A DNA stretch of 64,000 nt from Desulfurococcales archaeon. Lineage in GTDB: Archaea > Thermoproteota > Thermoprotei_A > Sulfolobales > Ignisphaeraceae. Position numbers and translations under genes: made by a program. The notes under the pieces were generated by a model. It made no database searches. It saw only the letters and a list, made by a program, of their open reading frames with translations, and had not been told where the DNA came from. Positions 25,801-64,000 of the stretch are shown in pieces. The DNA lies in NCBI GenBank assembly GCA_027066265.1, contig JAMOOB010000490.1, forward strand, positions 3,111 through 67,110, written 5' to 3'. Within the stretch, counting starts at the first letter, position 1, and each line of letters begins with the position of its first letter.

Positions 25801-25989
25801 ACCGAAGAACTGGCTGGATACCCACGTCGCTACGCTGTTGTACTCTATACCGCCCGCAGCGCAGACGATAACCGCTGCCACAGCTGGGATCAGCAGGAGC
25901 AGTACGGCGGCTAGCCTCGCGAGGGATCCGAGGATCCTCCTCTCGGCTGGAGACAGAACGAGCTCTAGCCTGATACCCACGCTCGCCAC
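19807..25989 (-). CDS. giant membrane-anchored surface protein with LamG (concanavalin A-like lectin) repeats
   Basis: 2060 aa with N-terminal signal/anchor and C-terminal TM segments. Three super-repeats (APHLYDWYFDG...F.G.IA.VRI.NRAL...EI plus FLDPTFFNGTHYIDLS...ERWLW...LHLRFFP). Many N-x-S/T sequons. Confidence 0.85.
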   Translation of the reverse strand: MASVGIRLELVLSPAERRILGSLARLAAVLLLLIPAVAAVIVCAAGGIEYNSVATWVSSQFFGQLAIYGAPLNVSDPNLLSYLNTYVVDQQGQPYYSYLFSSYPPFVLWVEGAAGQKIYNVFYGGTNPYPEYVATPSTSPLFAAYDDFDYETGYWTIYGRYTVAQSQLQLDAGSLAIFNTSYEPRVVAIWLLRGARTGLAITLYSPVDYTGWVHIHLDNTNFADWSSIKDGTDIYFLDAATLQPLNYSVLYLSKTERVLDAAVYISIGAGQTKTIYMLYGQDNPYTSYRVEPTAVEKTASFESPTSIEVYRIQPDTSWKPTTQWVTITQNATLKPGTTIVPHIYKLYVPPYAHTPHIDANRVEFTPAVYAKSFTMIVSVYPMSSDSRCVFLMRTAARYGYFVIDVYPYGYRSAAGRDPYTDKIYAFPWASTPANEFALAYDYDNAITYYIDNNEIDNVSLLDAGYTRFVFFYYIEIGFDVDWDNAWIPTRYQDPSIWRYLLFVNNTVLDANTVREIIESHTIPDAVSRSVILFFDPTFYNGTHYLDLTRHFVGNIRGTVVRVLDEDRWLWTIYGLYSDSYLHLRFFPYGSVVKIYNASSGTLVAWIRVVGFTNPAGLVEELDVPIQLPEDVYTVVVEAPVTSVGSNVNGPPFGQYPSMPQIIVYSGQLGEKDTTWRTSSGGIVWWEYVSADLSIGWYVPGRYTAAVPYDLATAVDIGNIQPFLKLVERTTPYYTVMPLPTNITIETTAAIEPNTTIAPHLYDWYFDGVNSRVSVPSFSTITTLPFAVEVLVKYDTFQQPWCGIVSWDRDANKGFWLLTHAYVNAIVIGTGNGDTYGEMSVSMNEHSGRWTYIAVNYFVDRFDVYVDSTYVGTRTLDIETKLPVGNPLFIGSRRSGWYSHGFIAFVRIFNRALTETEINSVYTANASDLALFLDPTFFNGTHYIDLSQHHNDGVPYGNVKRIPAEERWLWIIYNASSDNLVHLRFFPLGTVVRFYDASSGELVKEAVVANATNAAGLVEDYTVKLPAGTYRIVAIIAPHSYQIIRARSVYLANNYAIAPHLYDWYFDGEDDYIDVGAFNSVDPSSDFAIALMFSPVETPIASVIMGQFGGDPLWVRVNYKGKLAAIYLGGAENPGYHPTQTTYQDLTWRFVAFTVSGTTLNIYVDTSLETTVDIGTGRRFSNGNPLWIGWTPYRTPHPPYRGYIAYTIIYARALDPTSIADLYNNHKLDPTSLVLFLDPTFFNGTHYIDLSPSRYAAIPRGDVKRVPAEERWLWVVPNLYNDGYLHLRFFPYGSIVRLYRHGRVVTSFFVTCTPNAAGLCEDYKVWIPPGTYDIEVLVPYPPIDTVEASVGDIGDLEARDSYDLQTNLTAATSMPMTLLLDMPAVFGLIKNPHVPNLFWGSYFGYSNANATYESPSNDTAVQVRFRYEPGERLAVAILNISLSYGEGIANITAVVYNNGSWLWLCYLPDSRCVNTSIALDSAGWYLLTVVFEKPNRIRILLGNGSYVPGGIYQDTPREFVYSATVYGPFAGTYALGVYVTPSDMYGLHESVLYDWARIVQYPIGRAKIVGTAAVERIYRVSYLLSGNATSLGIYLSGVERLRIIVPRVGDEPIEVWFGNFTPVAVQSSGGVVLGSYTVSTDSVVAVVGNTTAAVRTYTEPGLYVVMSILPNGTAVLYADGEPLMSFSAGSTSFMQVMVEIAGGGTVTGGFFTPLYLDRLKTVSTAPSIVPVSSIAGARGVVVGWIHSEAAGYMVCGINVSTSAELFLDINGTVKSVPIAPAALPAVVVIGYDYNNATGSVSCFAMYVWSEGRYTRYRTAIVEASSPIEVGYAYPFINASTSVAVERFGVTLGWAFEALAKGALSLSILGPVPVGGLVKYVALSRPVIIDISSGELRIYPGGAKGITLRGFRGWTLNFAIAGTSVSGVVVSSDEYVLDVPLGFTAMVVVNPSSRQISIVAAAPSPPVLRATVGRGENITLPSTSIAPPPTPITQLSIDMIVLGGAMIALAIAAARLSGDIGLGIALAGFVATILCAVMGNTYGLALSVLAIVVGIGIRIANR

Positions 25990-54092: not shown

Positions 54093-55442
54093 CTACGATG
54101 TGACCATCCTGATGGCTCCTCGTATAAGCTCCTCGACTGTGTTCACCTTTACGTGCCTGAAGTGCTTTAGCCATCCTGGTCTCCACGACGGTGGCAGGAT
54201 TATGAATCCGACCCTGTACCTGCTCGCAACCTCCTTGGCGAGGTCCTCCGGAACCTCGTCGATCCCGTCGGAGATCACGATGTATACCCTGTCGCGTCTG
54301 CCGATCCGCTTGATCGTCTTCAGCACCTCCTCGATGCTCGTACCTCCATCGGCGCAGATGGTGAGGAGCGTTCTCACAACGTCTCTGGGGCTAACCTTCT
54401 CGACCTCCGTGTCGAAGAGGTAGACCTCGCCGCCGAGCTTCCTGTACAGCGCTAGAGCTAGCCCCGCTGCGCCGGCGATCTTCTCGACGAGCTGCCCGGT
54501 CTCCGAAGGCATCGTCTCCGCCATGCTGCCGCTCTTATCCACGAATATCACCGGTCTGAAAGCGGCTGCGCGCTGGTAGACAACGGCTGTTCTGCTGAGG
54601 AGCCTAAGCGCGAAGAGCTCGAACGGCAGCACGTGCTCCGTCGTCGTCAGGTCCACGATCTGCCTAGGATCGCGCATTATTCCGACACCCGTTATGCCAC
54701 CGAACACGGCTGTCACATTCATGTGTTCGAGGGATGTCGGTACGGATGATAGCGCTAGCCTGAACATCCTCAGAGCGTTCTTCAGGATCCTGACGCGGTT
54801 GCGGAACTCATGGGGACGCTCGAGAAATGTCCACACCGATAGCGCATCATGGCTGTAGCCAGAGCAGCCACCCAGCATAGCCGCCGCCTCCTCTGCCTCC
54901 GCCTTCCCCTGCTGGTACTCCTGAACAGCCTGTAGCGCCGCCTGTGCAGCCGCTAGGGCTGCCCTCGTAGCCCTGTCGATGAGCTCCTGAAGCGCTTGGT
55001 TCAAGGCTTGACCTGTCAGCGTCTGTTGCTGTAGCTGCTTGATCTTCTGCTGAGCAACCTGCGTATCCAGCTCGGACAGCAGGTTCTTGAGGAACTGGTA
55101 CGCAGCGATAACAGCGAGATCCACAGAGCCAGCAGTAACCCTGTTCAGCCTGTAGAACTCGTCGGAAGAAAGGTAGTTCTGCATAATCTTGTGCCACACG
55201 ATACTCGCAGACTTCTTGACGTTTCTCATCACCGTCTCATAGGATTTGTAGTGAGACATAAACGCATCGAAAACCATGTAGAACCTCGGTCTGACCCTAG
55301 ACCTCCACAGCAGCCTAAACACATCGTTAGTGAACTGCGCATAGTACTCAACAGGCAGCCCCTCCAGGATACCCATCTTGAACACCGATTTCGCCAAGCC
55401 AGAACGGTAAAACGCTTCTTCTTGAGCCTTGTCAAGACTCAT
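54093..55442 (-). CDS. von Willebrand factor A (VWA/MIDAS) domain protein
   Basis: VIFVDKSGSM (DxSxS MIDAS) in the C-terminal half. Start trimmed to ATG 55442 after CCACAGCTGTGGGGTTGGAA. Confidence 0.8.
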   Translation of the reverse strand: MSLDKAQEEAFYRSGLAKSVFKMGILEGLPVEYYAQFTNDVFRLLWRSRVRPRFYMVFDAFMSHYKSYETVMRNVKKSASIVWHKIMQNYLSSDEFYRLNRVTAGSVDLAVIAAYQFLKNLLSELDTQVAQQKIKQLQQQTLTGQALNQALQELIDRATRAALAAAQAALQAVQEYQQGKAEAEEAAAMLGGCSGYSHDALSVWTFLERPHEFRNRVRILKNALRMFRLALSSVPTSLEHMNVTAVFGGITGVGIMRDPRQIVDLTTTEHVLPFELFALRLLSRTAVVYQRAAAFRPVIFVDKSGSMAETMPSETGQLVEKIAGAAGLALALYRKLGGEVYLFDTEVEKVSPRDVVRTLLTICADGGTSIEEVLKTIKRIGRRDRVYIVISDGIDEVPEDLAKEVASRYRVGFIILPPSWRPGWLKHFRHVKVNTVEELIRGAIRMVTS

Positions 55443-55450
55443 TTCCAACC

Positions 55451-55462
55451 CCACAGCTGTGG
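55451..55462. promoter_or_regulatory. CCACAGCTGTGG palindrome (perfect)
   Basis: Lies 8 nt upstream of the VWA gene ATG 55442. Confidence 0.7.
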
Positions 55463-55520
55463 ATATGGACAACAAGCGTAGTCATCCCCCAAACAAATGT
55501 CTATTGTTTGATGTGGTTTG

Positions 55521-55680
55521 GGTGCACCTAAACCTTTGCAGAGGGACGCAAGAATTGAGAGAGGTGCACCGAGATAGCGTCAAGACCTGGGTTTACATAG
55601 CCGATACAAAACATTGTGGAAGCGTTCAATGTTGCAGCCCCTGTATATACCGCTCCATCGCCGTAGCCGTCTGATGGTTT
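55521..55680 (-). repeat. GGTGCACC-box element plus duplicated promoter/leader, copy B
   Basis: GGTGCACC at 55521 and 55563, with the identical 35-mer at 55634-55668. Lies between the moxR-like and VWA genes. Confidence 0.7.
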
Positions 55681-55699
55681 GCTCAGCTATGTAAAAAGG

Positions 55700-56863
55700 C
55701 TAGGTGTTTCCGGCTAGCTTCTTCAGCATCTCCTTCGTCTCAGCAACCTTGTTGAGGTACTCCCTAGCCTGCGCAATGATAGCCTCTGCTCTTGGTTTGA
55801 GCCACGGCTTGTTGGCGATCTTGTTGAGGTCGAAGTCGACAATTTCCTGAAGGATCTTCTCGGCTTCGTCAAGTCTACAGCTTCTTATCAGCTCCTTGGC
55901 TCTGCTGAGCTTCTCGGCAAGCTCGCCGACCTCTCCGAGACCCTCCATAATGATCTTCTTGATCTGCTCATGCTCACTCCTATCGCGTGCTAGATACGGC
56001 AGTATCTTTATCGCTCCCTCCATAACGTTCTCTAAGCGCACACCGAACAGCGCCAGATAGGCGGCGAGGAGCTTCGGGAGCTTCTCGATGATGGTTCTAT
56101 CGCTAACGATAATGCCTTTGGCTCTGAGCTCCTTGACGAAGTTGATCACGTTGACATGGTACAGCTTGATGAAGTCCATATCCCTTATCCTGCTCCTTAT
56201 CAATGTGATGGTATAGCCATGAAGCGTCCTAACGTCGTCCATAGACGCAACGGGCTTGATCTCGTGCCCGTTGAGCCATCTAGCCTCCAGCGCTTTCAGT
56301 ATCAGCACATCATCGTTTAGGTAGTCAAAGAATATTCTGATACTGAATCGGTCGTAGAGAGCCTGCAGCTCCTCGTCCTGTGGCACCTCGTTACTAGCAC
56401 CAAATAAGCTCCACAGCTTGGCAGGAACCTCAGCACCGGACATCGGGTCGTAGAGTATCCTCTCCTGCATTAGAGCCAGCAAAGCGTTTAGAATAGCGCT
56501 GTTAGCCTTGAACACCTCGTCGAGGAACACTATCTCAGCATCCTTGATCTTCGTCCATTTCCTCACAAGATCTCCTCGTTCTCTAAGCGCTGGAATGTCG
56601 AACGGACCAAGAATCTCGATATCGCTGGTAAACTTGGTTAGTAGATAGCTGTAGAAGCTGGCGTTCAGCAGCTTGGCAAGGGTCTTGATAGTCATCGTCT
56701 TGGCTGTGCCCGGCGGGCTGATCATGACGGCGTGTTCCTTGGCAATCAATGCTAGGACAAGCATCGTATTAACCTCGTCGTGACCGATGACAACCGAGTT
56801 CAGAACGTTTAGAACCTGCTTAACGTTATGACGAGCGTTTTTCACTTCTTGAGGAACGGACAT
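55700..56863 (-). CDS. MoxR/RavA-type AAA+ ATPase
   Basis: VIGHDEVNTMLVLALIAKEHAVMISPPGTAKT (Walker A) and VFLDEVFKANSAILNALLALMQER (Walker B, RavA-like). Start trimmed to ATG 56863. Confidence 0.85.
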   Translation of the reverse strand: MSVPQEVKNARHNVKQVLNVLNSVVIGHDEVNTMLVLALIAKEHAVMISPPGTAKTMTIKTLAKLLNASFYSYLLTKFTSDIEILGPFDIPALRERGDLVRKWTKIKDAEIVFLDEVFKANSAILNALLALMQERILYDPMSGAEVPAKLWSLFGASNEVPQDEELQALYDRFSIRIFFDYLNDDVLILKALEARWLNGHEIKPVASMDDVRTLHGYTITLIRSRIRDMDFIKLYHVNVINFVKELRAKGIIVSDRTIIEKLPKLLAAYLALFGVRLENVMEGAIKILPYLARDRSEHEQIKKIIMEGLGEVGELAEKLSRAKELIRSCRLDEAEKILQEIVDFDLNKIANKPWLKPRAEAIIAQAREYLNKVAETKEMLKKLAGNT

Positions 56864-56889
56864 TTCAACCCCCAAAACAAACAAGGTGT

Positions 56890-57342
56890 TTACCAGGGCT
56901 CGGTAACGATCTGTACAGCTTTGATCACTTCGAAGCCTTTGAACTCGTGTATCTTGATTGTTCCGTCTGCATAGGTTGTTGCTGTTCGTCTATCTGGAGC
57001 CTCCTCGATGATTCTCTTGGCTTCCTCCCACGTTCCTACCGTTGCTATAGCCTCCATCTTCGCGTAGAGCACTGTAAATCCATACCTCTTCGATAGCTCA
57101 ACAAGCCGCGCTATAAACGATAGCGGTAGCACAGGCACAATTATCTTCGCATTGTGCTTCTGAGCAATTTCAACAACAGTTTCAGCATTAGGAACAGTTC
57201 CATCTACCTGAATAATCCTGATGTTCCCTAGCTTCTCCTTGAGCCTCTGGATCTGTACCGGCAACGGCTTGTGACGGCTAACCCATAGAACTACAGTTAC
57301 CGGCTCGGGATCGTTATAGATTTCAACGACTCTGAACGACAT
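56890..57342 (-). CDS. hypothetical protein
   Basis: 150-aa version starting MSFRVVEIY after CCACAGCTGTGGGGATCTCC. Confidence 0.55.
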   Translation of the reverse strand: MSFRVVEIYNDPEPVTVVLWVSRHKPLPVQIQRLKEKLGNIRIIQVDGTVPNAETVVEIAQKHNAKIIVPVLPLSFIARLVELSKRYGFTVLYAKMEAIATVGTWEEAKRIIEEAPDRRTATTYADGTIKIHEFKGFEVIKAVQIVTEPW

Positions 57343-57350
57343 GGAGATCC

Positions 57351-57362
57351 CCACAGCTGTGG
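57351..57362. promoter_or_regulatory. CCACAGCTGTGG palindrome (perfect)
   Basis: TTTT-palindrome-GGATCTCC-ATG 57342. Confidence 0.7.
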
Positions 57363-57384
57363 AAAACCCCAAAGAAAACAGTGT

Positions 57385-58689
57385 TTATCGTTGGGAAACC
57401 GTCTTCTCTAGCTCTTCCACCATCTTCTTGACTGCTTCATAGAGCTTTCTGCGATACTCAAGGTCTTCGTTGAGTCTCTTGAGGTATGACATCTTCTTCT
57501 CCGCTTTAGCCTTCTCAATCCTTTCCCTCAGCTCCTTCAACTCACTCTCAAGCAGATACTTAGCCTCGTTCAAGATATCGAGTGCCACTTCCGGTTCCAC
57601 GTATATCGGTATAACCTTCACAACGTACTTGCTGAGAAGCTTCGGGTAGTCGGGGCGAACCTTCGCCAGCGCCGGCATCTCGGAGAGCTTCCGTCGTATC
57701 ATATCAGCAACCTCCTCAGCAATCTTCACCGCTTCGTCAGTTACCGCAATCCATAGACCAGCCTGTCTCTCAGAGCCAAGATGTATGAAGTATCTACGTG
57801 CCTTCTTCGTTGCTTCCGTCCTGATAGTTTCGAGAGCACTGGCCAGCGCCCTTCTTAGCTGGTCATCGAAGTCCCTGATCTCGATAAAGCCCTTATCGGT
57901 CTTCTCAATACGTACACTCTGCACCAAGTAGCGGGAGGGTCTCACCCATCGCAGGATATAGAGCTTGACCAGCTGTGTCTTCTGGGGAACCTCCTTCTCT
58001 GTGGTAGCAGTTGTGGTAACAGCCTTAGCCTCCTGAACCTCCTCTTCCTCACCTTCCTCTTCGCCAAGAATCCGCTGTGCTATCTTCATCTTCATCTCTT
58101 CGCTTAGCTCCTCCTTCTCCTCCTCTGTTTCCTCCTGTTCTTCCTCTTCCTCTCCACGGATCTTCTTTAGCCATTCCTCGATGTCTTTAGCAATCTCTTC
58201 GAGCTTCTGCTTGTTCAGAACGAATACAACCGTCCCTGTATACTTCAGCTTACTCCCTGGCTTCCACGCCGGTATCGCTATCAACTCTGGATGCTCCTTC
58301 TCGATCTTTCTCTGTAGGCTGAACGCTATCGCCCATGCCTTCTTCTTGTCCTTGTCGTTGAAGACACCCTCGTATGCCGTCATCATCTTTGCAAAGATCT
58401 CGACATTCTTCTCCTCATACACTGCTCTATCCTGATACATCAGCTTTATTTCGAAACGCATACACTGTCCATTGACAGCGATATCGCTGCACATATTAGC
58501 ATCAGCAAAGTAGTAGGTGATCTCGGTCTTCAGAATATTTCCTAGCTCACGTCTATAGCCAACAATAGCTCTATCACTATCGTCAATAGAGTAATGCTTC
58601 GTATTCTTGATGTATACATCTTTGATGATCGATACGAGAAGATCCTTGACAGAGGTATACCTAACAGAACCATTTCCATTAGATGACAT
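57385..58689 (-). CDS. hypothetical protein with central poly-acidic linker
   Basis: 434-aa version starting MSSNGNGSV after TTTGGGGGTTGCA. Contains an EEEEEQEETEEEKEE linker. Confidence 0.6.
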   Translation of the reverse strand: MSSNGNGSVRYTSVKDLLVSIIKDVYIKNTKHYSIDDSDRAIVGYRRELGNILKTEITYYFADANMCSDIAVNGQCMRFEIKLMYQDRAVYEEKNVEIFAKMMTAYEGVFNDKDKKKAWAIAFSLQRKIEKEHPELIAIPAWKPGSKLKYTGTVVFVLNKQKLEEIAKDIEEWLKKIRGEEEEEQEETEEEKEELSEEMKMKIAQRILGEEEGEEEEVQEAKAVTTTATTEKEVPQKTQLVKLYILRWVRPSRYLVQSVRIEKTDKGFIEIRDFDDQLRRALASALETIRTEATKKARRYFIHLGSERQAGLWIAVTDEAVKIAEEVADMIRRKLSEMPALAKVRPDYPKLLSKYVVKVIPIYVEPEVALDILNEAKYLLESELKELRERIEKAKAEKKMSYLKRLNEDLEYRRKLYEAVKKMVEELEKTVSQR

Positions 58690-58715
58690 TGCAACCCCCA
58701 AACAAACAGGGTAGA

Positions 58716-58835
58716 TCATTCATCGTCGAAGCAGATGTAGACAGTACCATCATCGGGGTCATAATCCCATGCACCACCGTATGGAGCCGAGAAGTTGGGT
58801 TCGGTATAGAGAGCCATACAGTTCTTCCTCTCCAT
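58716..58835 (-). CDS. 39-aa small ORF (below the ORF-track cutoff)
   Basis: My translation: MERKNCMALYTEPNFSAPYGGAWDYDPDDGTVYICFDDE. Preceded by the conserved TTTTTGGGGGATCGAA-ATG module. Confidence 0.35.
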   Translation of the reverse strand: MERKNCMALYTEPNFSAPYGGAWDYDPDDGTVYICFDDE

Positions 58836-58865
58836 TTCGATCCCCCAAAAACAAGGAGGGTTGTA

Positions 58866-59102
58866 TCAGCGTGGAGGTGTATAGGGTGTGACCACGAGTC
58901 GTAGGCTCGACCTAACAGCCTTCTCTATCTCTCTACGCACTTTTCTGGATCTATGTCTTGCTGTAATGGGTATATTATCGGGCATCAGCTTGCTAACAAT
59001 GGTTTTGATAACATATGTTCTGAGACGCCTCGGATCATATCCATCATCGACGAGTAGCGTACCAAACAACTCATTACCTAGATAAACCCTCACGAGTTTC
59101 AT
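58866..59102 (-). CDS. small hypothetical protein
   Basis: 78-aa ORF with TTTTTGGGGGATCGAA-ATG context. Confidence 0.5.
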   Translation of the reverse strand: MKLVRVYLGNELFGTLLVDDGYDPRRLRTYVIKTIVSKLMPDNIPITARHRSRKVRREIEKAVRSSLRLVVTPYTPPR

Positions 59103-59204
59103 TTCGATCCCCCAAAAAGAAAGAAAAAGAAGATGAGAATAGGGTGAGAATAGCCAGACAGGCAGACGACAGCACGAAGCAGACTGCTGAGTTCGCTAGA
59201 TTTT

Positions 59205-59465
59205 TCAGAGAAAGACAGGCAGACACCTAACACAGATATACATAGTATCATCGACATTTACACACGCGTTATCGCGCTCCTCAAGAAGCTTGAGGAGCTT
59301 CTCTAGCTCCCTCTCCTCAACGGAATTAATAGTTGCACGAATAGCATTCCCTAGCTGCTGTAGCGAAGCAACAGCAACAACCTCACAATCGCATGGACTT
59401 GATATACCTGTTAATCTATCGTAACAAACACTGCACCTCTCAATGATATACAGCTCCAACTTCAT
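59205..59465 (-). CDS. small Cys-rich protein
   Basis: 86-aa ORF with CSVC...CDC...CVRC. Confidence 0.5.
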   Translation of the reverse strand: MKLELYIIERCSVCYDRLTGISSPCDCEVVAVASLQQLGNAIRATINSVEERELEKLLKLLEERDNACVNVDDTMYICVRCLPVFL

Positions 59466-59517
59466 ATTTCAATACCCCAGCTGTGGTTATGGTAGAACCC
59501 CCAAAGAAAAACGGTGT

Positions 59518-60045
59518 TTAAGATCGATTAGGAGATAGGTTTGGATATAGATAGCCGCGGTAAACACACTCAGCCTCCTCATCCTCGTAGAATACACAAT
59601 GATTAACATTGATACTGAGAACACCAGCTTCTACAAGCATCCATAGATCGACAAACTTCTTCAGCATCAATATATCGTCATGTCTGAGTATCCTAGGTCT
59701 CTTCTGCAGCACGTCTCTAAGAATCTCTAGCACTTTTGCAAGTTCTCCCATGTTGTTTCTCCACAGCCAATTTATTAACCAACCTAGTCTTTCCTCCTTG
59801 GTTCTCTTAACACTTCCACTTCTCCTAACCTCTACTATGTAGCATTCATATTCATAGGTCTTCCTCACAGTTATTTCAATCCCTAGTAGCTTCAGCACCT
59901 TTCTTGCCTTTACGAATCTTTTCCCCTTTGGTATCTTTGGTATCCATAGCACCGTAGAATCATTTGGAGAGACAATATGCTGTATAATTCTTGCAGCAAA
60001 TGATACGGCATCGTAAAACGTATCATATATTTTCTTATCAATCAT
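59518..60045 (-). CDS. hypothetical protein
   Basis: 175-aa version starting MIDKKIYD after TTTGGGGATTGAA. Confidence 0.55.
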   Translation of the reverse strand: MIDKKIYDTFYDAVSFAARIIQHIVSPNDSTVLWIPKIPKGKRFVKARKVLKLLGIEITVRKTYEYECYIVEVRRSGSVKRTKEERLGWLINWLWRNNMGELAKVLEILRDVLQKRPRILRHDDILMLKKFVDLWMLVEAGVLSINVNHCVFYEDEEAECVYRGYLYPNLSPNRS

Positions 60046-60088
60046 TTCAATCCCCAAAGAAAACGAAGGTGTTGCAATGGATTTGGGG

Positions 60089-60421
60089 TTATCGACTAAG
60101 AAGTTTGTTGACAAATACCTCGAACTCATTGGGAGTCATCTCGGCAGTTATCTCCACTTCGCCACCAGAAGTGATGGATACAACGTAGATGTAGAGGTAG
60201 TGCGTAGCTCCACAGGTACCACATTTTACGTACTTGATAACCTCGTTGATATCTGCCCTAAACACCTCTACTCTTCTGCTGAGTCTATCTACAACTATGA
60301 CCTCATCAGTTTCACTAGCGTTAACTATGGCTACATAGTCGTCGTCCTTAATAGCGTTGACTACCCTAAAAACGATGTTTAGTGTATCGAGATCTAGCTC
60401 TGCAACACGAATCATTTCCAT
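60089..60421 (-). CDS. small hypothetical protein
   Basis: About 108-aa ORF containing KCGTCGATH. Palindrome variant CTACAGCTGTGG directly upstream. Confidence 0.5.
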   Translation of the reverse strand: MEMIRVAELDLDTLNIVFRVVNAIKDDDYVAIVNASETDEVIVVDRLSRRVEVFRADINEVIKYVKCGTCGATHYLYIYVVSITSGGEVEITAEMTPNEFEVFVNKLLSR

Positions 60422-60449
60422 TCCCCACAGCTGTAGAGAAGGGAGAACC

Positions 60450-60478
60450 CCGTAGCCCCGCCAGTGGCGGAGCTACGG
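60450..60478 (-). other. GC-rich interrupted 12-bp hairpin
   Basis: CCGTAGC-C-CCGCC-AGT-GGCGG-A-GCTACGG, between genes 60579..60797 and 60089..60421. Confidence 0.5.
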
Positions 60479-60578
60479 AGCGGGGTCTGCGACCCCCAAA
60501 GAAACGGTGTTTGTATGGGTTTAAAACAGTATTGTAATCGGGAAGAAGCAGATGTTTTTCGTAGCAATCACAAGGCGT

Positions 60579-60797
60579 TTATTTAAGCGAGACACCGAGG
60601 AGGGTATAGATAGCAGCTAGCACAGATGCTGGAATCTCATAGGCTATAACATTAGGATCATCCTCATGCCAGAAGCTGAACTGCAAATTCATGTCTACTA
60701 TAATAGCAAAGTCGTCGTAGATGATGGTTCTATTGTCCTCAATAATTTCCAGCCGAGCAGGCTGAGCGTATTCATAACATAACCTAAACCTGATCAT
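60579..60797 (-). CDS. small hypothetical protein
   Basis: 72-aa ORF. CCCCCAGTCTGGGGGATCGAA-ATG abuts the GC-rich island. Confidence 0.5.
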   Translation of the reverse strand: MIRFRLCYEYAQPARLEIIEDNRTIIYDDFAIIVDMNLQFSFWHEDDPNVIAYEIPASVLAAIYTLLGVSLK

Positions 60798-60814
60798 TTC
60801 GATCCCCCAGACTG

Positions 60815-61858
60815 GGGGTTGTGGGGAGCCGGGGGCCTACCCCTTCATCCCTCCCCGTGCTTCCCCCACCCCGCATCCCACCCTTCTTGGGGTGGGGTTA
60901 GCCGGGGTAACCGGGCCCCGCCACATCCCCCCTTCCCCGCCCCCGGGCTGTTCACCCGGGGTACGGGTACGGGGTCGGGGGGGCCCTGGAGGCCCCACCG
61001 CGGAGAACCGCGGCTTCGCCCCCTGGGGTGCGGGGCTACCCACGCCCGAGTTACCTCGGGCGTGGGCGGGCCTTGGTCGGGGGCAGACCCCCGACCCCCC
61101 TACTCCTCTTCGCGAAGCCCCCGTGGCCCACCCCGTGGGCCCGGGGGGACTGCTCCCGTTCCCCGCGGTCCTTCCCCCGAGAGGCTGGTGGGCCATTACC
61201 CCACCAACACCCCTCGGGGTGGACCACGGTTCACAACGGCGGCGGGGACCCCTTCGGGGCGGGCTCCCCTCGGGGATGAACCGGGGGTTCATCCCATCCC
61301 CGGGGGTCATCCCCAACAGGTCGCACCCCGGGGATTGGTCCCCCCGTCGCAGCCCCCCACGCCCCCACCCCCTACCGGGGCTAACCCGGTAGGAAGGTGG
61401 GGGCAGACCCACGGGCAGGCCACGGGGGCACGGCGCGGGGCGGGGAGGAGCCTATGCCCAACCCCCTGCCCACCCCTCATCCCAACCCTCCTCACCCCAC
61501 ATTGCTGCGTTTACCTCGCCTCACCCGCCCACCCAAGCCCCCACCTTAAAGCCCCCCGGGGGCTCCGCCCGATCGGGCGGAGGGGTGGGCGGGTTCATCG
61601 GCTCATCGGGTTCCTGCTAATGACAGCGGTGTTTGGGGGATCATCGTCCTCGGGCGGATCGGGATGAGCAGGGGGTTCTGGGCGGCTCCTCCCCGCCCCC
61701 ACTGCCTCGCTTGCATCGCTCCTTCGGGCGGGGTGCCGCATCCCCCGCCCGGCGTTGCCCCGGGTTGGGTTGCGCCCGGGGTCGCCGGGCGGGTCTCGGT
61801 TGGTCATCCGCGCCCCGCCTTGCGGCGGGGCGCTCCCGTCCCCCGCCCGGGGCTCTCC
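60815..61858 (-). ncRNA. candidate large GC-rich structured RNA (strand and RNA status inferred)
   Basis: About 80% G+C. Perfect hairpins at 61039-61066, 61076-61095, 61118-61147, 61273-61295, 61371-61393, 61563-61582 and 61810-61833. ORFs in all frames are P/G/R-rich. BRE/TATA upstream on the minus strand. Confidence 0.35.
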
Positions 61859-61883
61859 GTGTATACTATAGGGGGAGCAGGGG

Positions 61884-61897
61884 TTAATATACTTTTC
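61884..61897 (-). promoter_or_regulatory. BRE/TATA-like promoter GAAAAGTATATTAA
   Basis: The minus strand reads GAAAAG-TATATTAA about 25 nt upstream of the GC-rich island. A perfect palindrome (61933) lies about 40 nt further upstream. Confidence 0.4.
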
Positions 61898-61932
61898 TAT
61901 CTGTGGAGGGATTGAGAATCGGTGGCTTGTTC

Positions 61933-61944
61933 CCACAGCTGTGG
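61933..61944. promoter_or_regulatory. CCACAGCTGTGG palindrome (perfect)
   Basis: Lies between the GC-rich island with its promoter and the GGCTCGCA array. Confidence 0.7.
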
Positions 61945-61995
61945 ATACGAGAAGGATGTGGAGAGAGCACAGAGGTCTTCTTTCCACGTCTTGTT

Positions 61996-62408
61996 GGTTC
62001 GCACTATTCTCGTGGGCACGGTCTTTCGGCTCGCATGGACTCGCTCCGCATGCTAAACGGGGCTCGCATATCCTCCCTCTACACGCGAGTTCGGTTCGCA
62101 CACGGTTTCGCCACACGGTTCTACGGATCCGCACGCGAGATCTCTACACCTCGTCTCCGGCTCACATGAGTAGGCTCGACACGAGCAAATGGTTCACACG
62201 AAATCTATCAACATATCTCGGCGGTTCGCATCCGCATAAAGTTTCTCCATATCGAGCAAAGCCTCGCGGCTCGCACAGTAAACCTACCCAGGGTCTTCTC
62301 GGCTCGCACACCTCTTCTGCGCACAGGAGACCTCGGCTCGCATCGGAACTCTTCCCAGGCCGGAGCCGGCTCGCAACGCAGTCCTGCACATTCATCGAGG
62401 TGCTCGCA
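61996..62408. repeat. 13-unit array of GG(C/T)TCGCA boxes with ~32-33 bp period
   Basis: Boxes at 61996, 62028, 62061, 62093, 62125, 62159, 62191, 62223, 62268, 62301, 62335, 62368 and 62401. The intervening ~23-nt segments are unrelated. Confidence 0.75.
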
Positions 62409-62416
62409 CAGGGGGT

Positions 62417-63337
62417 CTAGAGAGCTTGGGTGGCTTCGGCCCTCCTCTCGATCGCTAGGGGCACCTCCCTGCCCCGCGCGACGACGATTATCGGCGGGTA
62501 GTACATGTTCCTGATCCCGGCGAAGACCACGTACGGCGGTCTGTACGGCAGGCCCAGGATCGCGCAGTAGGCCTCGTAGTACTGCGAAAGCCATACCTTG
62601 GCCACGAGGCGGTACGCTCTGAGCGTAGCGTGCGACACTATAGACGACATCAGCTCCCTAGCCCTAGACCTGGTCACCGAGACGCCGAGGCTCTTAAGAG
62701 CCTCGGCAAACCCATCAACGTCCCTGCTCCTAGCAGCCGCAGCAACAGCCCCAACCCTATCACCGTCGATGGCATCGACGGCTGTACCCAGGTACCTACC
62801 GAGCTTCTGCGGAACGAGCTTCCTGATCTCCCGCTCCAGCCACTCCTCGAAGAGCGACCTGTAGAACCTGACGTTCCTAACCAGCTGCCTAGCGATCTGC
62901 CCCGTCACAGCCTTGCAGATCCTGTGGTAGCACTCGGCGCTACCGCACTTCTCGACGTAGTACTCCCTCGGCGCCCATCCGCACCACGCCCACAGCTTGC
63001 TAACGGTCTGAAACCTCCACGGATGGATGTTCCCTAGAACCAGACCGCTCAGCACAGTACCCAGCCCAGGAAGGTACCTGAGGTACTGCTGGTACACCGG
63101 GTGCCGCCTAACGAGAGGCTCCATCAGCTCCTCGAGCTTCTCCTTACCCATCTCAGCAGCCCTAACGATCTCCGGCGTCAGCTCGCACGGAAAGCCCTGC
63201 TCCCTACACACCTTCGCATAGAAGTTCTTGTAGCTCTGAACACGCTTCCTCTGGATCCAGTACAGACGCGAAACCTCGTAGAGCCTCATCTCGATAGACC
63301 TAACCGACTCGGGACAGCGAGACCAGTCGATGGGCAT
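62417..63337 (-). CDS. protein with IS110-family Transposase_20-like (HhH) segment; no obvious DEDD domain
   Basis: YLRYLPGLGTVLSGLVLGNIHPWRFQTVSKLWAWCGWAPREY resembles the IS110 L.iPGiG...a..l.aei.d..rF.s...l.ay.Gl.P signature. GGTGGAGGG lies before the ATG. Confidence 0.5.
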   Translation of the reverse strand: MPIDWSRCPESVRSIEMRLYEVSRLYWIQRKRVQSYKNFYAKVCREQGFPCELTPEIVRAAEMGKEKLEELMEPLVRRHPVYQQYLRYLPGLGTVLSGLVLGNIHPWRFQTVSKLWAWCGWAPREYYVEKCGSAECYHRICKAVTGQIARQLVRNVRFYRSLFEEWLEREIRKLVPQKLGRYLGTAVDAIDGDRVGAVAAAARSRDVDGFAEALKSLGVSVTRSRARELMSSIVSHATLRAYRLVAKVWLSQYYEAYCAILGLPYRPPYVVFAGIRNMYYPPIIVVARGREVPLAIERRAEATQAL

Positions 63338-63396
63338 AGCCCTCCACCGCTTCTCCAGCTATAAAGCACAGAGAATATAAGGTCTTTAGCATTGGT

Positions 63397-63408
63397 CCAC
63401 AGCTGTGG
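63397..63408. promoter_or_regulatory. CCACAGCTGTGG palindrome (perfect)
   Basis: Lies about 60 nt upstream of the IS110-like gene ATG 63337, with TATA-like CTTATATTC in between. Confidence 0.7.
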
Positions 63409-63661
63409 AGAGGGATAGAACGATGTGTAGCGCCAGAGACACACGTGTTCCACTATATACAGCGGTGTTACAGCTGTAACTATCGAGGAGATGAATAGCG
63501 GTAGACGAGGTTAAACCTCGTAGCACGGGTATCTGCACGGGAGTGGAGCCGTGTCCGCGAGAAGCATAGTCAAGCCGGTATGCATCGTGCTGGCGATATG
63601 CATAGCTACGGGTATCGCGGATATCGTGATAGACATCCTTTCGCGGTCTAGCGGTGCAGAC

Positions 63662-64000
63662 ATGTTCGCTGCTAGGATGGATAGCTATGACGATGTGCCG
63701 AACATCATTTCCACAGCTGTGGACAGCTGCTATATGTGTCCGCGCAGCGGTGATCCGCTTGATCTGGCTATGAAGGTGCTTCTCCGGTACAGGTACTGTC
63801 TGCACTACCCCTTCGACGAGGTGTGGCTGCCGATGACGGTGGCGATGACGAGGTGCGGAACATGTATGGACCTAGCGCTGATGCTGGTAGCGTCGGAGAT
63901 ATCCTCTGGTCACGAAGCGCTTCTGCTGCTGATCGACACCGGAGAGGAAGAGATCGGGCATGCAGCTGCGGCTATCAGGACGAGCAGCGGGTGGATCGTT
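63662..64000 (+). CDS. partial CDS, possible transglutaminase-like/papain-fold Cys peptidase
   Basis: Open frame from ATG 63662 (or ATG ~63733 just after the palindrome) to the window end. RCGTCMDLALMLVASE...IGHAAAAI looks like a Cys...His core. Confidence 0.35.
   Translation, partial: MFAARMDSYDDVPNIISTAVDSCYMCPRSGDPLDLAMKVLLRYRYCLHYPFDEVWLPMTVAMTRCGTCMDLALMLVASEISSGHEALLLLIDTGEEEIGHAAAAIRTSSGWIV

What the first reader, a model, noticed from the sequence alone, without database searches (positions are those of the whole stretch)
61996..62408. Thirteen phased GG(C/T)TCGCA boxes (32-33 bp period) forming an iteron or mini-array next to the IS110-like gene
Seen directly: boxes start at 61996, 62028, 62061, 62093, 62125 (GGATCCGCA), 62159 (GGCTCACA), 62191 (GGTTCACA), 62223, 62268, 62301, 62335, 62368 and 62401 (TGCTCGCA). 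The spacings are 32, 33, 32, 32, 34, 32, 32, 45, 33, 34, 33 and 33 bp. The ~23-nt segments between boxes are not related to each other.

The period is not a multiple of 3, so the 159-aa ORF over the array is probably fortuitous. The array is flanked on the left by an AT-rich segment with TATA-like boxes (61861-61900) and a perfect CCACAGCTGTGG copy (61933). It ends 9 nt before the stop of the convergent IS110-like gene (62417).

Inference: 32-33 bp is about three helical turns, which puts all boxes on one DNA face. That is typical of plasmid or viral iterons and centromere-like partition sites. Alternatively, an AT-rich leader followed by short repeats and unique spacers could be transcribed as a guide-like array. 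That second reading is speculative.
Basis: partly seen in the sequence, partly recalled or inferred. Interest (0 to 1): 0.8.

Follow-up and report, generated by a model that had tools for sequence, protein, structure and literature searches.

The report
TIGR guide-RNA array beside tasA gene
The thirteen phased boxes are the repeats of a TIGR guide-RNA array, read on the opposite strand and lying just downstream of its nuclease-free Tas (TasA-type) protein gene on a roughly 71-kb circular virus-like element, so this is a new and slightly unusual example of a system first described in 2025.

Summary

It is not an iteron set and the neighbouring gene is not an IS110 transposase. The 306-aa protein (62417..63337, minus strand) is a Tas protein of the TIGR-Tas family:
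- It matches the Nop part of TaTasR (PDB 9MTY) by sequence, E 1.4e-11 alone and 2.4e-64 as a family profile.
- The top 11 fold matches of its model are all TasR or TasH.
- It has no RuvC or HNH domain, so it is the TasA type.

Read on the gene strand, the boxes are the edge repeat UGCGAGCC. The array starts 8 nt after the stop codon. Each unit also holds a second, missed box, UGNNNAG, fixed 15 nt before the next edge.

52 of 81 loci encoding relatives carry such an array on the gene strand, mostly with a 35-37-nt period. The window and its two closest relatives (L026, L027) share a 32-33-nt unit whose second half is 3 nt short and lacks the CCA box. They also have Arg in place of the catalytic His used for guide processing.

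The likely function is RNA-guided DNA binding without cleavage. Targets are unknown. I class it as a new member of a known kind, with moderate interest.

The parts
62417..63337 (-). tasA: 306-aa TIGR-associated protein of the TasA type. It has an N-terminal coiled-coil hairpin (helices 10-47 and 55-78), a Nop domain and a C-terminal loop. It has no nuclease domain.
   Evidence: - Pfam Transposase_20, E 2.9e-4, residues 84-154 only.
- phmmer against PDB: TaTasR 9mty_A, E 1.4e-11, query 55-277 against TasR 144-313.
- Profile of 58 relatives against PDB: TaTasR 2.4e-64, TasH 8.3e-30, IS621 0.006.
- AF2 model pLDDT 87.4. Foldseek against PDB: ranks 1-11 are all TasR or TasH.
- NCBIfam NF052498 TIGR_Tas_endo: E 5e-17, 62.6 bits, below the cut-off of 100.
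63360..63365 (-). Candidate archaeal TATA box (TTTATA on the minus strand) 23-28 nt upstream of the tasA ATG. It is the presumed promoter of a leaderless tasA-array transcript.
   Evidence: Read directly from the sequence. This is an inference with no transcript data.
61967..62408 (-). TIGR array of 13 units, with minus-strand starts at 62408, 62375, 62342, 62308, 62275, 62230, 62198, 62166, 62133, 62100, 62068, 62035 and 62003. Each unit is edge UGCGAGCC (8 nt), spacer A (9-11 nt), loop UGNNNAG (7 nt) and spacer B (8 nt). Twelve units are 32-34 nt and one is irregular at 45 nt (62275-62231). The array ends in a degenerate partial edge, TGTGC (61971-61967).
   Evidence: The closest relatives L026 and L027 have the same edge motif, strand and position relative to the gene, as do 50 more distant loci.
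62401..62408 (-). First edge repeat (UGCGAGCA variant), starting 8 nt after the tasA stop codon (62417-62419).
   Evidence: In L026 the stop codon overlaps the first edge repeat.
61941..62420 (+). 159-aa ORF antisense to the array. It is fortuitous and not part of the system.
   Evidence: - No Pfam family.
- No period-3 signal.
- The unit length is not a multiple of 3.
- Relatives conserve the repeat phase and not an ORF.
63397..63408 (.). A CCACAGCTGTGG palindrome about 30 nt upstream of the tasA TATA box. It is one of 26 copies in the window and probably a site for an element-wide regulator (context only).
61933..61944 (.). A CCACAGCTGTGG palindrome 22 nt past the last array unit. Together with the TATA-like boxes at 61861-61900 it more likely belongs to the next minus-strand transcription unit than to the array.
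   Evidence: This is an inference.

Best explanation
This is a TIGR-Tas locus of the TasA type (no nuclease), carried by a circular virus-like element of about 71.5 kb.

Proposed mechanism:
1. tasA (62417..63337, minus strand) and the array directly downstream of it (62408 to 61967) are transcribed together from the promoter upstream of tasA.
2. A TasA dimer binds each unit. One protomer holds the two halves of the edge repeat (UG...CC) and the other holds the loop motif (UGNNNAG).
3. The precursor is cut inside the edge repeats into guide RNAs (tigRNAs) of about 32-34 nt. Each carries spacer A (9-11 nt) and spacer B (about 8 nt).
4. The two spacers pair with opposite strands of one DNA site of about 17-18 bp, whose top strand reads B followed by the reverse complement of A.
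5. Because the protein has no RuvC or HNH domain, the complex binds and bends DNA without cutting it, blocking transcription or replication at the target.

Shown here: protein homology and fold, the two-repeat anatomy of the array, and conservation of the gene-array pairing. Taken from experiments on other family members: transcription, processing, tandem-spacer targeting and repression by TasA. Inferred for this locus: the promoter, co-transcription, the exact spacer boundaries, the processing enzyme and the targets.
For: Protein:
- Sequence match to the Nop part of TaTasR.
- Profile match to TasR at 2.4e-64 and TasH at 8.3e-30, with IS621 only at 0.006.
- A confident model whose best 11 PDB fold matches are all TasR or TasH complexes.
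- NCBIfam TIGR_Tas_endo hit over nearly the whole profile.
- Only about 55 residues precede the region that aligns to TasR 144-313, so there is no room for a nuclease domain.

Array:
- The edge UGCGAGCC is the same motif as in canonical arrays of distant relatives, for example L008 with UGCGAGCCA/UGAAACCCA at 36 nt.
- A second box, UGNNNAG, sits in fixed register.
- 13 units fits the published range of 5-15.
- There is no coding periodicity.

Conservation:
- 52 of 81 loci encoding relatives have a periodic array on the gene strand.
- The closest relative, L026 (44% identity), has the same edge, loop and 32-33-nt unit with entirely different spacers. Its array ends in a truncated edge followed by a T-rich tract.
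- In L027 the first base is C in both the edge (10/13) and the loop (10/13). This is the edge-loop covariation expected for an RNA bound by a symmetric dimer (PMC12045711 section 8).

Function:
- TasA proteins bind processed tigRNAs.
- TasA acts as an RNA-guided repressor (bioRxiv 10.64898/2026.09.09.750476).
Against: - There are no expression or processing data for this locus.
- The unit is 32-34 nt rather than the 36 nt described as conserved for dual-repeat tigRNAs.
- The loop lacks the CCA box C, and the second half of the unit is 15 nt rather than 18.
- The catalytic His of the Tyr/His processing dyad is Arg276, so self-processing is uncertain.
- The protein scores below NCBIfam's trusted cut-off.
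- No target was found. Composite protospacers in the element itself and in 355 kb of related loci are no better than mismatched-pair controls.
- No oligo-T terminator follows the window's array.
- The three available copies of the locus are 100% identical, so spacer turnover cannot be seen.
Confidence: 0.88

Rival explanations
1. The array is a set of iterons or a centromere-like site. The boxes would be protein-binding sites on one face of the DNA, about three helical turns apart, serving replication initiation or partition of the element and perhaps bound by the adjacent protein.
For: - The 32-33-bp phasing is real.
- The element is a circular extrachromosomal-type replicon, and no origin or partition locus has been identified on it.
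- Some TasA loci are reported to be operonic with ParB-like genes.
Against: - The adjacent protein has the RNA-binding Nop fold of Tas proteins.
- The same motif in the same strand orientation relative to the gene follows tas genes in 52 unrelated phage and virus contigs. Strand polarity would not matter for DNA sites on one helical face.
- Most relatives have a 35-37-bp period, which is not an integral number of helical turns.
- Arrays in relatives end with a truncated repeat followed by a T-rich tract.
- Family members are shown experimentally to be transcribed and processed.
Confidence: 0.04
2. The array is a decaying, non-functional TIGR remnant. On this view the weak loop motif, the 45-nt unit and the loss of the catalytic His reflect erosion of a once-canonical 36-nt array.
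For: - The loop is conserved at only 4 of 7 positions.
- One unit is irregular.
- Several edge variants occur: UGCGAACC, UGUGAACC and UGCGGAUCC.
- Arg replaces His at the processing position.
- No targets were found.
Against: - The same short architecture (15-nt second half, YGNNNA(G/U) loop, 32-33-nt unit) recurs in L026 and L027, whose proteins are only 44% and about 28-34% identical to the window's and whose spacers are unrelated.
- Edge and loop covary in L027. That is conservation, not decay.
- tasA is intact, with the family's near-invariant residues: G91, S113, K114, W116, G120, Y159, H236, R243, K247 and Y269.
Confidence: 0.06
3. The units are box C/D-like guide sRNAs that direct RNA modification, such as 2'-O-methylation, through a Nop5-like protein rather than targeting DNA.
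For: Tas proteins share the Nop domain and dimer architecture with archaeal Nop5, and tigRNAs are structurally analogous to box C/D sRNAs.
Against: - The units contain no RUGAUGA or CUGA boxes.
- Units of 32-34 nt are too short for a C/D sRNA.
- The protein lacks the N-terminal fibrillarin-binding domain of Nop5.
- The best sequence and fold matches are Tas proteins, and Nop5 structures are not among the significant hits.
- TaTasR showed no activity on RNA substrates in vitro.
Confidence: 0.02

Closest known systems
Dual-repeat TIGR-TasA systems (for example Flavonifractor plautii FpTasA; Faure et al. 2025, PMC12045711)
   Same: - The protein is a Nop domain alone, with a coiled-coil and no nuclease.
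- The array lies directly downstream on the same strand.
- Short repeats of two kinds (edge and loop) alternate with two short spacers.
- The edge motif UGCGAGCC matches canonical arrays in relatives.
- 13 units fits the usual range.
   Different: - The unit is 32-34 nt, not 36.
- The loop is UGNNNAG with no CCA box C, so the second half-unit is 15 nt rather than 18.
- The edge ends in CC(G), not CCA.
- Arg replaces the catalytic His of the Tyr/His processing dyad.
- The host element is a GC-rich (about 55%), archaeal-virus-like circle.
TaTasR, the Thermoproteota archaeon TIGR-TasR (PDB 9MTY)
   Same: It is the best sequence and fold match. The coiled-coil plus Nop domain aligns over TasR residues 144-313.
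   Different: TasR carries an N-terminal RuvC nuclease of about 140 residues and cuts both DNA strands. The window protein has no such domain, and it has an insertion of about 60 residues (about 165-225).
The TIGR-like array noted in Acidianus tailed spindle virus (Hochstein et al. 2016, cited as reference 39 in PMC12045711)
   Same: It is a TIGR-type array in a circular archaeal virus genome. This element also encodes a MoxR AAA+ and VWA protein pair, glycosyltransferases and giant proteins. tblastn with its MoxR protein hits Sulfolobus, Acidianus and Bicaudavirus records.
   Different: There is no detectable DNA or TasA similarity to any record in the phage and archaeal-virus collection. The ATSV paper is not in the held library, so its array could not be compared.
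IS110/IS1111 bridge-RNA (seekRNA) recombinases
   Same: They share the Nop-like RNA-binding domain (Pfam Transposase_20), which is why the gene looks IS110-like. Their guide RNAs also have two binding loops.
   Different: This protein has no DEDD/RuvC-like catalytic domain, and the locus has no element ends. It has an array of 13 guides instead of one bridge RNA. IS621 and ISCro4 are only marginal matches (E 0.006-0.007 by profile; Foldseek E at least 0.06).
CRISPR arrays
   Same: Both are arrays of repeats and unique spacers next to an effector gene, transcribed and processed into guides.
   Different: The repeats are 7-8 nt, against 23 nt or more in CRISPR. There are two repeat types and two spacers per unit. 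No cas1 or cas2 gene was identified among the proteins scanned here.
Plasmid iterons and parS centromeres
   Same: Both are phased short direct repeats in a non-coding stretch of an extrachromosomal replicon.
   Different: Here the strand polarity relative to a Nop-domain gene is conserved across unrelated elements. The core is 8 nt rather than about 17-22 bp. No Rep or ParA/ParB gene was identified among the neighbouring genes examined.

Membership tests
TIGR-Tas | The Tas protein has a Nop domain homologous to characterised Tas proteins. | tested here: met
   - phmmer to TaTasR 9mty: 1.4e-11.
- Family profile to TaTasR 2.4e-64 and TasH 8.3e-30.
- Foldseek top 11 hits are all TasR or TasH.
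TIGR-Tas | The protein passes the curated family model (NCBIfam NF052498 TIGR_Tas_endo, cut-off 100 bits). | tested here: not met
   The score is 62.6 bits (E 5e-17) over profile positions 6-213 of 215. The homology is clear, but the score is below the trusted cut-off, so automatic annotation would not name it. The distant relative P0003 passes at 116 bits.
TIGR-Tas | An array adjacent to tas, on the gene strand, has two alternating short repeats (edge and loop) separated by two short spacers. | tested here: met
   The unit is edge UGCGAGCC, 9-11 nt, loop UGNNNAG, 8 nt, repeated 13 times and starting 8 nt after the stop codon.
TIGR-Tas | Both repeats begin with box D (UG), and box D covaries between edge and loop. 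| tested here: met
   - Window: UG in 11/11 regular edges and 11/11 loops.
- L027: CG in both, at 10/13 each.
TIGR-Tas | Both repeats end with box C (CCA or a covarying motif) placed 4 nt after box D. | tested here: not met
   The edge has CC(G). The loop has no shared box C at the equivalent position (G 9/11, then variable), and the second half-unit is 3 nt short. L026 and L027 are the same.
TIGR-Tas | Dual-repeat arrays have a 36-nt unit. | tested here: not met
   The unit is 32-34 nt in the window, L026 and L027. It is 35-37 nt in the other 50 loci where an array was detected.
TIGR-Tas | Dual-repeat Tas proteins have a Tyr/His processing dyad in the C-terminal loop (SpTasH Y289/H296). | tested here: inconclusive
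   Tyr269 is present and the position 7 residues later is Arg276. 133 of 197 relatives have His there, while the window's nearest relatives P0059, P0060 and P0061 also have Arg. The alignment across this flexible loop assumes no insertions or deletions.
TIGR-Tas | The array is transcribed and processed into unit-length RNAs that are bound by Tas. | not testable with these tools
   This needs small-RNA sequencing or a pull-down.
TIGR-Tas | The two spacers together target opposite strands of a DNA site. | tested here: inconclusive
   No composite protospacer was found beyond the controls in the 71.5-kb element or in 355 kb of related loci. The host genome is unknown.
TasA subtype | The protein has no HNH or RuvC nuclease domain. 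| tested here: met
   There is no Pfam nuclease hit. Only about 55 residues, forming a helix, lie N-terminal to the region aligned with TasR 144 onward.
IS110 family transposase | The protein has an N-terminal DEDD/RuvC-like catalytic domain (Pfam PF01548) together with the Transposase_20 domain. | tested here: not met
   Only a marginal Transposase_20 hit was found (21.6 bits against a cut-off of 21.3), and there was no PF01548 hit. NCBIfam transpos_IS110 scores 21 bits against a cut-off of 140.
Iteron or centromere repeats | The repeats are bound as double-stranded DNA by a Rep or ParB-type protein encoded nearby. | not testable with these tools
   No Rep, ParA or ParB domain was found in the neighbouring genes scanned. 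Binding itself was not testable.
CRISPR | The array has one repeat type of 23 nt or more, with cas genes nearby. | tested here: not met
   The repeats are 7-8 nt and of two types. Rfam gathering-threshold search of the window found nothing.

The most novel reading that the evidence does not exclude
The window, L026 and L027 may define an undescribed compact subtype of dual-repeat TIGR-TasA. Its features would be:
- a guide of about 33 nt that is asymmetric, with a canonical first half (box C, spacer A, box D);
- a second half 3 nt shorter, whose loop keeps box D and an A(G/U) but has no CCA box;
- a TasA that carries Arg in place of the catalytic His, implying a different processing chemistry or a host RNase.

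The published detector joins 14-nt box C-spacer-box D intervals across 4-nt gaps. Arrays of this kind may therefore be among the roughly two-thirds of tas loci with no array called.
Probability: 0.35. Interest if true: 0.5.

Novelty: new member of a known kind. Interest (0 to 1): 0.35.

Why it matters
- It settles what the repeat block is. A feature that looks like an origin or centromere next to a "transposase" is an RNA-guided DNA-binding system. This also exposes an annotation trap: Pfam, PHROGs and the PDB depositors' own molecule name label Tas proteins as IS110-type transposases, and this one falls below NCBIfam's Tas cut-off.
- It adds a TasA system on an apparently archaeal, virus-like element of about 71.5 kb, with 12-13 natural guides whose targets could reveal what viruses use nuclease-free TIGR systems for. 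That question is still open in the field.
- The shorter asymmetric unit and the His-to-Arg change, shared by three diverged loci, suggest the "conserved 36-nt fold" of dual-repeat tigRNAs has exceptions. That matters for array-finding software, and possibly for engineering smaller guides.

Tried and rejected
- Tandem Repeats Finder does not see the array.
- Rfam finds nothing at gathering thresholds. At relaxed thresholds it gives only sub-threshold hairpin hits. No tRNAs were found.
- Comparative data from the same element failed. L001 and L002 are 100% identical to the window over this region, so spacer variation could not be assessed.
- The phage and archaeal-virus collection gave no DNA match to 56001-64000. 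It also gave no tblastn match to TasA or to the 1403-aa protein.
- A viral-contig scan with the single protein found nothing.
- Self-targeting was tested and rejected. I tried both half-site orders, gaps of 0-3 nt and two spacer definitions, with mismatched A/B pairs as controls. The best hits have 2 mismatches, no better than the controls. One attractive hit (unit 1, at 70866-70885 of the full circle) is in the non-canonical half-site order and falls within the control range.
- Scanning public collections for 17-18-mers was not attempted, because I estimated that chance exact matches would be too numerous to interpret.
- I asked whether the GC-rich block 60800-61860 is a second, stem-loop type TIGR array. 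It has no units that meet the published criteria.
- Coding was rejected for both the array ORF and the GC-block ORFs, on the absence of period-3 signal.
- The ATSV paper (PMC4794678) is not in the held library.

Full report
**1. The observation**

The sequence shows all 13 boxes at the stated positions with the stated spacings. The clustering is not chance.
- Exact GGYTCGCA occurs 9 times within 380 bp and twice in the remaining 63.6 kb.
- With one mismatch allowed, 11 copies lie on one strand in about 470 bp, against 0.21 expected (Poisson P 7e-16). No other 500-bp bin of the whole element has three or more.
- Self-similarity peaks at lag 33.
- Tandem Repeats Finder misses the array, because less than half of each unit is conserved.
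- The overlapping 159-aa ORF has no family match, and the region has no codon periodicity: 0.9 against 19-43 for real genes in the window.

**2. The neighbouring gene is a Tas protein, not an IS110 transposase**

The 306-aa product of 62417..63337 (minus strand) has only a marginal Pfam Transposase_20 hit on residues 84-154 and no DEDD catalytic domain.
- Against the PDB its only significant sequence match is chain 9mty_A (E 1.4e-11). That 331-residue protein is solved as "TIGR-TasR in complex with tigRNA and target DNA". Query 55-277 aligns with TasR 144-313, which is the coiled-coil and Nop part.
- A profile of 58 relatives scores TaTasR at 2.4e-64 and TasH at 8.3e-30. IS621 and ISCro4 score only 0.006-0.007.
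- An AlphaFold2 model (pLDDT 87.4, pTM 0.85) finds TasR or TasH complexes as its 11 best PDB fold matches. IS110-family recombinases follow at E of 0.06 or worse.
- NCBIfam's TIGR_Tas_endo model matches over nearly its whole length (E 5e-17). At 62.6 bits it falls below the curated cut-off of 100.
- PHROGs files the protein under a family annotated "transposase".
- Only about 55 residues, forming a long helix, precede the part aligned to TasR. There is no room for a RuvC or HNH domain, so the protein is of the TasA type.

**3. The array read on the gene strand**

On the minus strand the boxes read UGCGAGCC. The first starts 8 nt after the tasA stop codon, and 13 units follow, from 62408 down to 61972. 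A degenerate partial edge (TGTGC, 61971-61967) ends the array.

Positions -15/-14 are U (11/12) and G (12/12), -10 is A (10/12) and -9 is G (9/12).

Each unit is therefore edge UGCGAGCC (8 nt), spacer A (9-11 nt), loop UGNNNAG (7 nt) and spacer B (8 nt). This is the edge/spacer A/loop/spacer B layout that defines Tandem Interspaced Guide RNA arrays. In those arrays both repeats begin with UG (box D), and canonically both end with CCA (box C) (PMC12045711). One unit (62275-62231) is irregular at 45 nt.

**4. The gene-array pairing is conserved**

Only two distant homologues turned up at first. Both have an array directly downstream on the gene strand.
- L008 has a canonical UGCGAGCCA / UGAAACCCA array with a 36-nt unit.
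- L003 has AGCGAGCCA / GACAACCA.

Further searches gave 81 loci encoding relatives. A crude scan for a 6-mer recurring at regular spacing finds an array on the gene strand in 52 of them. Nearly all have a UGCGAG-type edge and a 35-37-nt period. L013-L016 (P0061) also carry a 36-nt array that the scan missed but that is visible by eye in L013.

The closest relative is L026 (44% identity). Its array begins at the stop codon. It has the same UGCGAGCC edge, the same UGNNNA(G/U) loop fixed 15 nt before the next edge, 32-33-nt units and 16 edge repeats with unrelated spacers. It ends in a truncated edge followed by a T-rich tract.

L027 (about 28-34% identity) has arrays on both sides of the gene, again with 32-33-nt units. 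There the first base is C rather than U in both the edge (10/13) and the loop (10/13). This edge-loop covariation is what the literature describes for an RNA held by a symmetric Tas dimer. It argues that the weak loop motif is functional.

**5. How this clade departs from the canonical description**

In the published frame, a half-unit is box D (2 nt), 4 nt, box C (3 nt) and a spacer (9 nt), giving 18 nt.
- The first half-unit here is 17-19 nt, which is canonical.
- The second is 15 nt, and its loop has no shared box C.
- The literature calls the 36-nt fold of dual-repeat tigRNAs conserved. The published array finder links 14-nt box C-spacer-box D intervals across exactly 4-nt gaps. Such arrays may therefore go undetected, though that is my inference.
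- SpTasH processes its own precursor with Tyr289 and His296 (PMC13421893). The window protein keeps the Tyr (Y269) but has Arg276 seven residues later.
- Among 197 relatives, 133 have His at that position and 165 have a His within +5 to +9. The window protein and its nearest relatives P0059, P0060 and P0061 have Arg and no His there.

**6. Likely mechanism**

A TTTATA box lies 23-28 nt upstream of the tasA ATG (63360-63365, minus strand). This suggests a leaderless transcript that runs on into the array, but no transcript data exist.

By analogy with characterised systems, the TasA dimer binds each unit, the precursor is cut within the edge repeats, and the resulting guides of about 33 nt direct the dimer to DNA.

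TasR leaves 8-nt 3' overhangs. From this I derive that each spacer pairs with the 3' half of its strand. A target's top strand therefore reads B followed by the reverse complement of A.

TasA proteins lack a nuclease and have been shown to act as RNA-guided transcriptional repressors. Binding without cleavage is therefore the expected output.

I found no target. Composite sites in the 71.47-kb element and in 355 kb of related loci are no better than those of mismatched A/B pairs.

**7. Context**

L001 joins the window's two ends through 7.47 kb, so the element is a circle of about 71.5 kb. It encodes:
- a MoxR-type AAA+ ATPase next to a VWA protein;
- glycosyltransferases;
- a helicase;
- a 2060-aa lectin-domain protein and a 1403-aa protein with no matches;
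- outside the window, a serine resolvase and a CCA-adding-enzyme-like protein.

The MoxR protein hits Sulfolobus, Acidianus and Bicaudavirus records among others. No close relative exists in the phage and archaeal-virus collection.

This gene content resembles large tailed spindle viruses of archaea. Faure et al. cite one of them, ATSV, as carrying a similar array. The assignment remains an inference.

**8. Rivals**

- *Iterons or centromere.* This is disfavoured by the RNA-binding fold of the protein and by the conserved strand polarity across unrelated elements. The 35-37-bp period in most relatives and the truncated repeat plus T-rich tract at array ends also argue against it.
- *A decayed remnant.* The same short architecture, with covariation, is conserved in three diverged loci, and the protein is intact.
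- *Box C/D sRNA guides for RNA modification.* The units lack the C and D box consensus, and the protein lacks a fibrillarin-binding domain.
- *Coding.* This is excluded by the absence of period-3 signal.

**9. Verdict**

The finding is real and biologically meaningful. It belongs to a family described in 2025, TIGR-Tas, for which more than 20,000 tas loci have been reported.

Its "speculative" alternative is right in kind but reversed in direction.

I rate it a new member of a known kind, with a modest chance (about 0.35) that the 33-nt asymmetric unit and the His-to-Arg change mark an undescribed compact subtype.

Noticed in passing
window 60800-61860: This 1.05-kb block is 70% GC against a window mean of about 55%. 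It lies directly downstream (minus strand) of the array.
- It has no codon-position GC bias (0.72/0.74/0.72) and no period-3 signal.
- It has 19 inverted repeats, including perfect 10-12-bp stems.
- GGATG and GATGA occur 9 and 8 times on the minus strand against 2 each on the plus strand.
- It has no Rfam family and no stem-loop tigRNA units.
- Gene callers place a spurious 282-aa Pro/Gly/Arg-rich ORF over it.

It could be a large structured RNA or an origin. It remains unexplained.
   Followed up: partly
window-wide, e.g. 8702, 18285, 31622, 34406, 48387, 52565, 61933, 63397, 63711: The window has 26 exact copies of the 12-bp palindrome CCACAGCTGTGG, against 0 expected. Most are intergenic and within about 10-150 bp upstream of ORF starts, and two bracket the tasA-array unit. 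It is probably the binding site of an element-encoded regulator or a promoter element.
   Followed up: partly
On the minus strand (TATATTAA at 61891-61884, and TATAGTATAC) they sit about 25-30 nt upstream of where the GC-rich block starts. They are better placed as the promoter of that next unit.
   Followed up: no
L001 1-9337 versus window ends: L001 (ENA ERZ27262656 k141_400781) joins window position 64000 to window position 1 through 7.47 kb. The element is therefore a circle of about 71.47 kb. The part outside the window encodes a serine resolvase (L001 3399-4073) and a CCA-adding-enzyme/poly(A)-polymerase-like protein with an HD domain (L001 7273-8733).
   Followed up: partly
window 54093-56884: A MoxR-type AAA+ ATPase (55700-56884) lies next to a protein with a weak VWA/CoxE-like match (54093-55475). 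tblastn with the MoxR protein hits Sulfolobus, Acidianus and Bicaudavirus records among others. Together with the glycosyltransferases and a 2060-aa lectin-domain protein (19807-25989), this hints at an archaeal tailed-spindle-type virus.
   Followed up: partly
L027 240-840 and 1635-1799: In this relative, TIGR arrays flank the tas gene on both sides. Box D is CG instead of UG in both edge and loop. The upstream array ends with a truncated edge followed by AAAAATTTTTAT about 40 nt before the gene.
   Followed up: yes
L013 4915-5720 (GCA_021159445.1 JAGGRV010000409.1, labelled Deltaproteobacteria MAG): This contig carries a 36-nt TIGR array (edge GUGNNNNAACC, loop YUCACG) after a TasA that is 31% identical to the window's. 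Its other genes are Hjc, STIV_B116-like, Cas4-like and Sulfolobus-virus coat (Sulf_coat_C) genes. It is almost certainly an archaeal filamentous-virus contig mis-binned into a bacterial MAG.
   Followed up: partly
window 62417-63337 (annotation): Tas proteins are labelled as transposases in several resources. Examples are Pfam Transposase_20, PHROG 4285 "transposase" and the molecule name of PDB 9MTY. This divergent TasA also falls below NCBIfam's TIGR_Tas_endo cut-off. Loci like this will be mis-annotated or left unannotated.
   Followed up: yes
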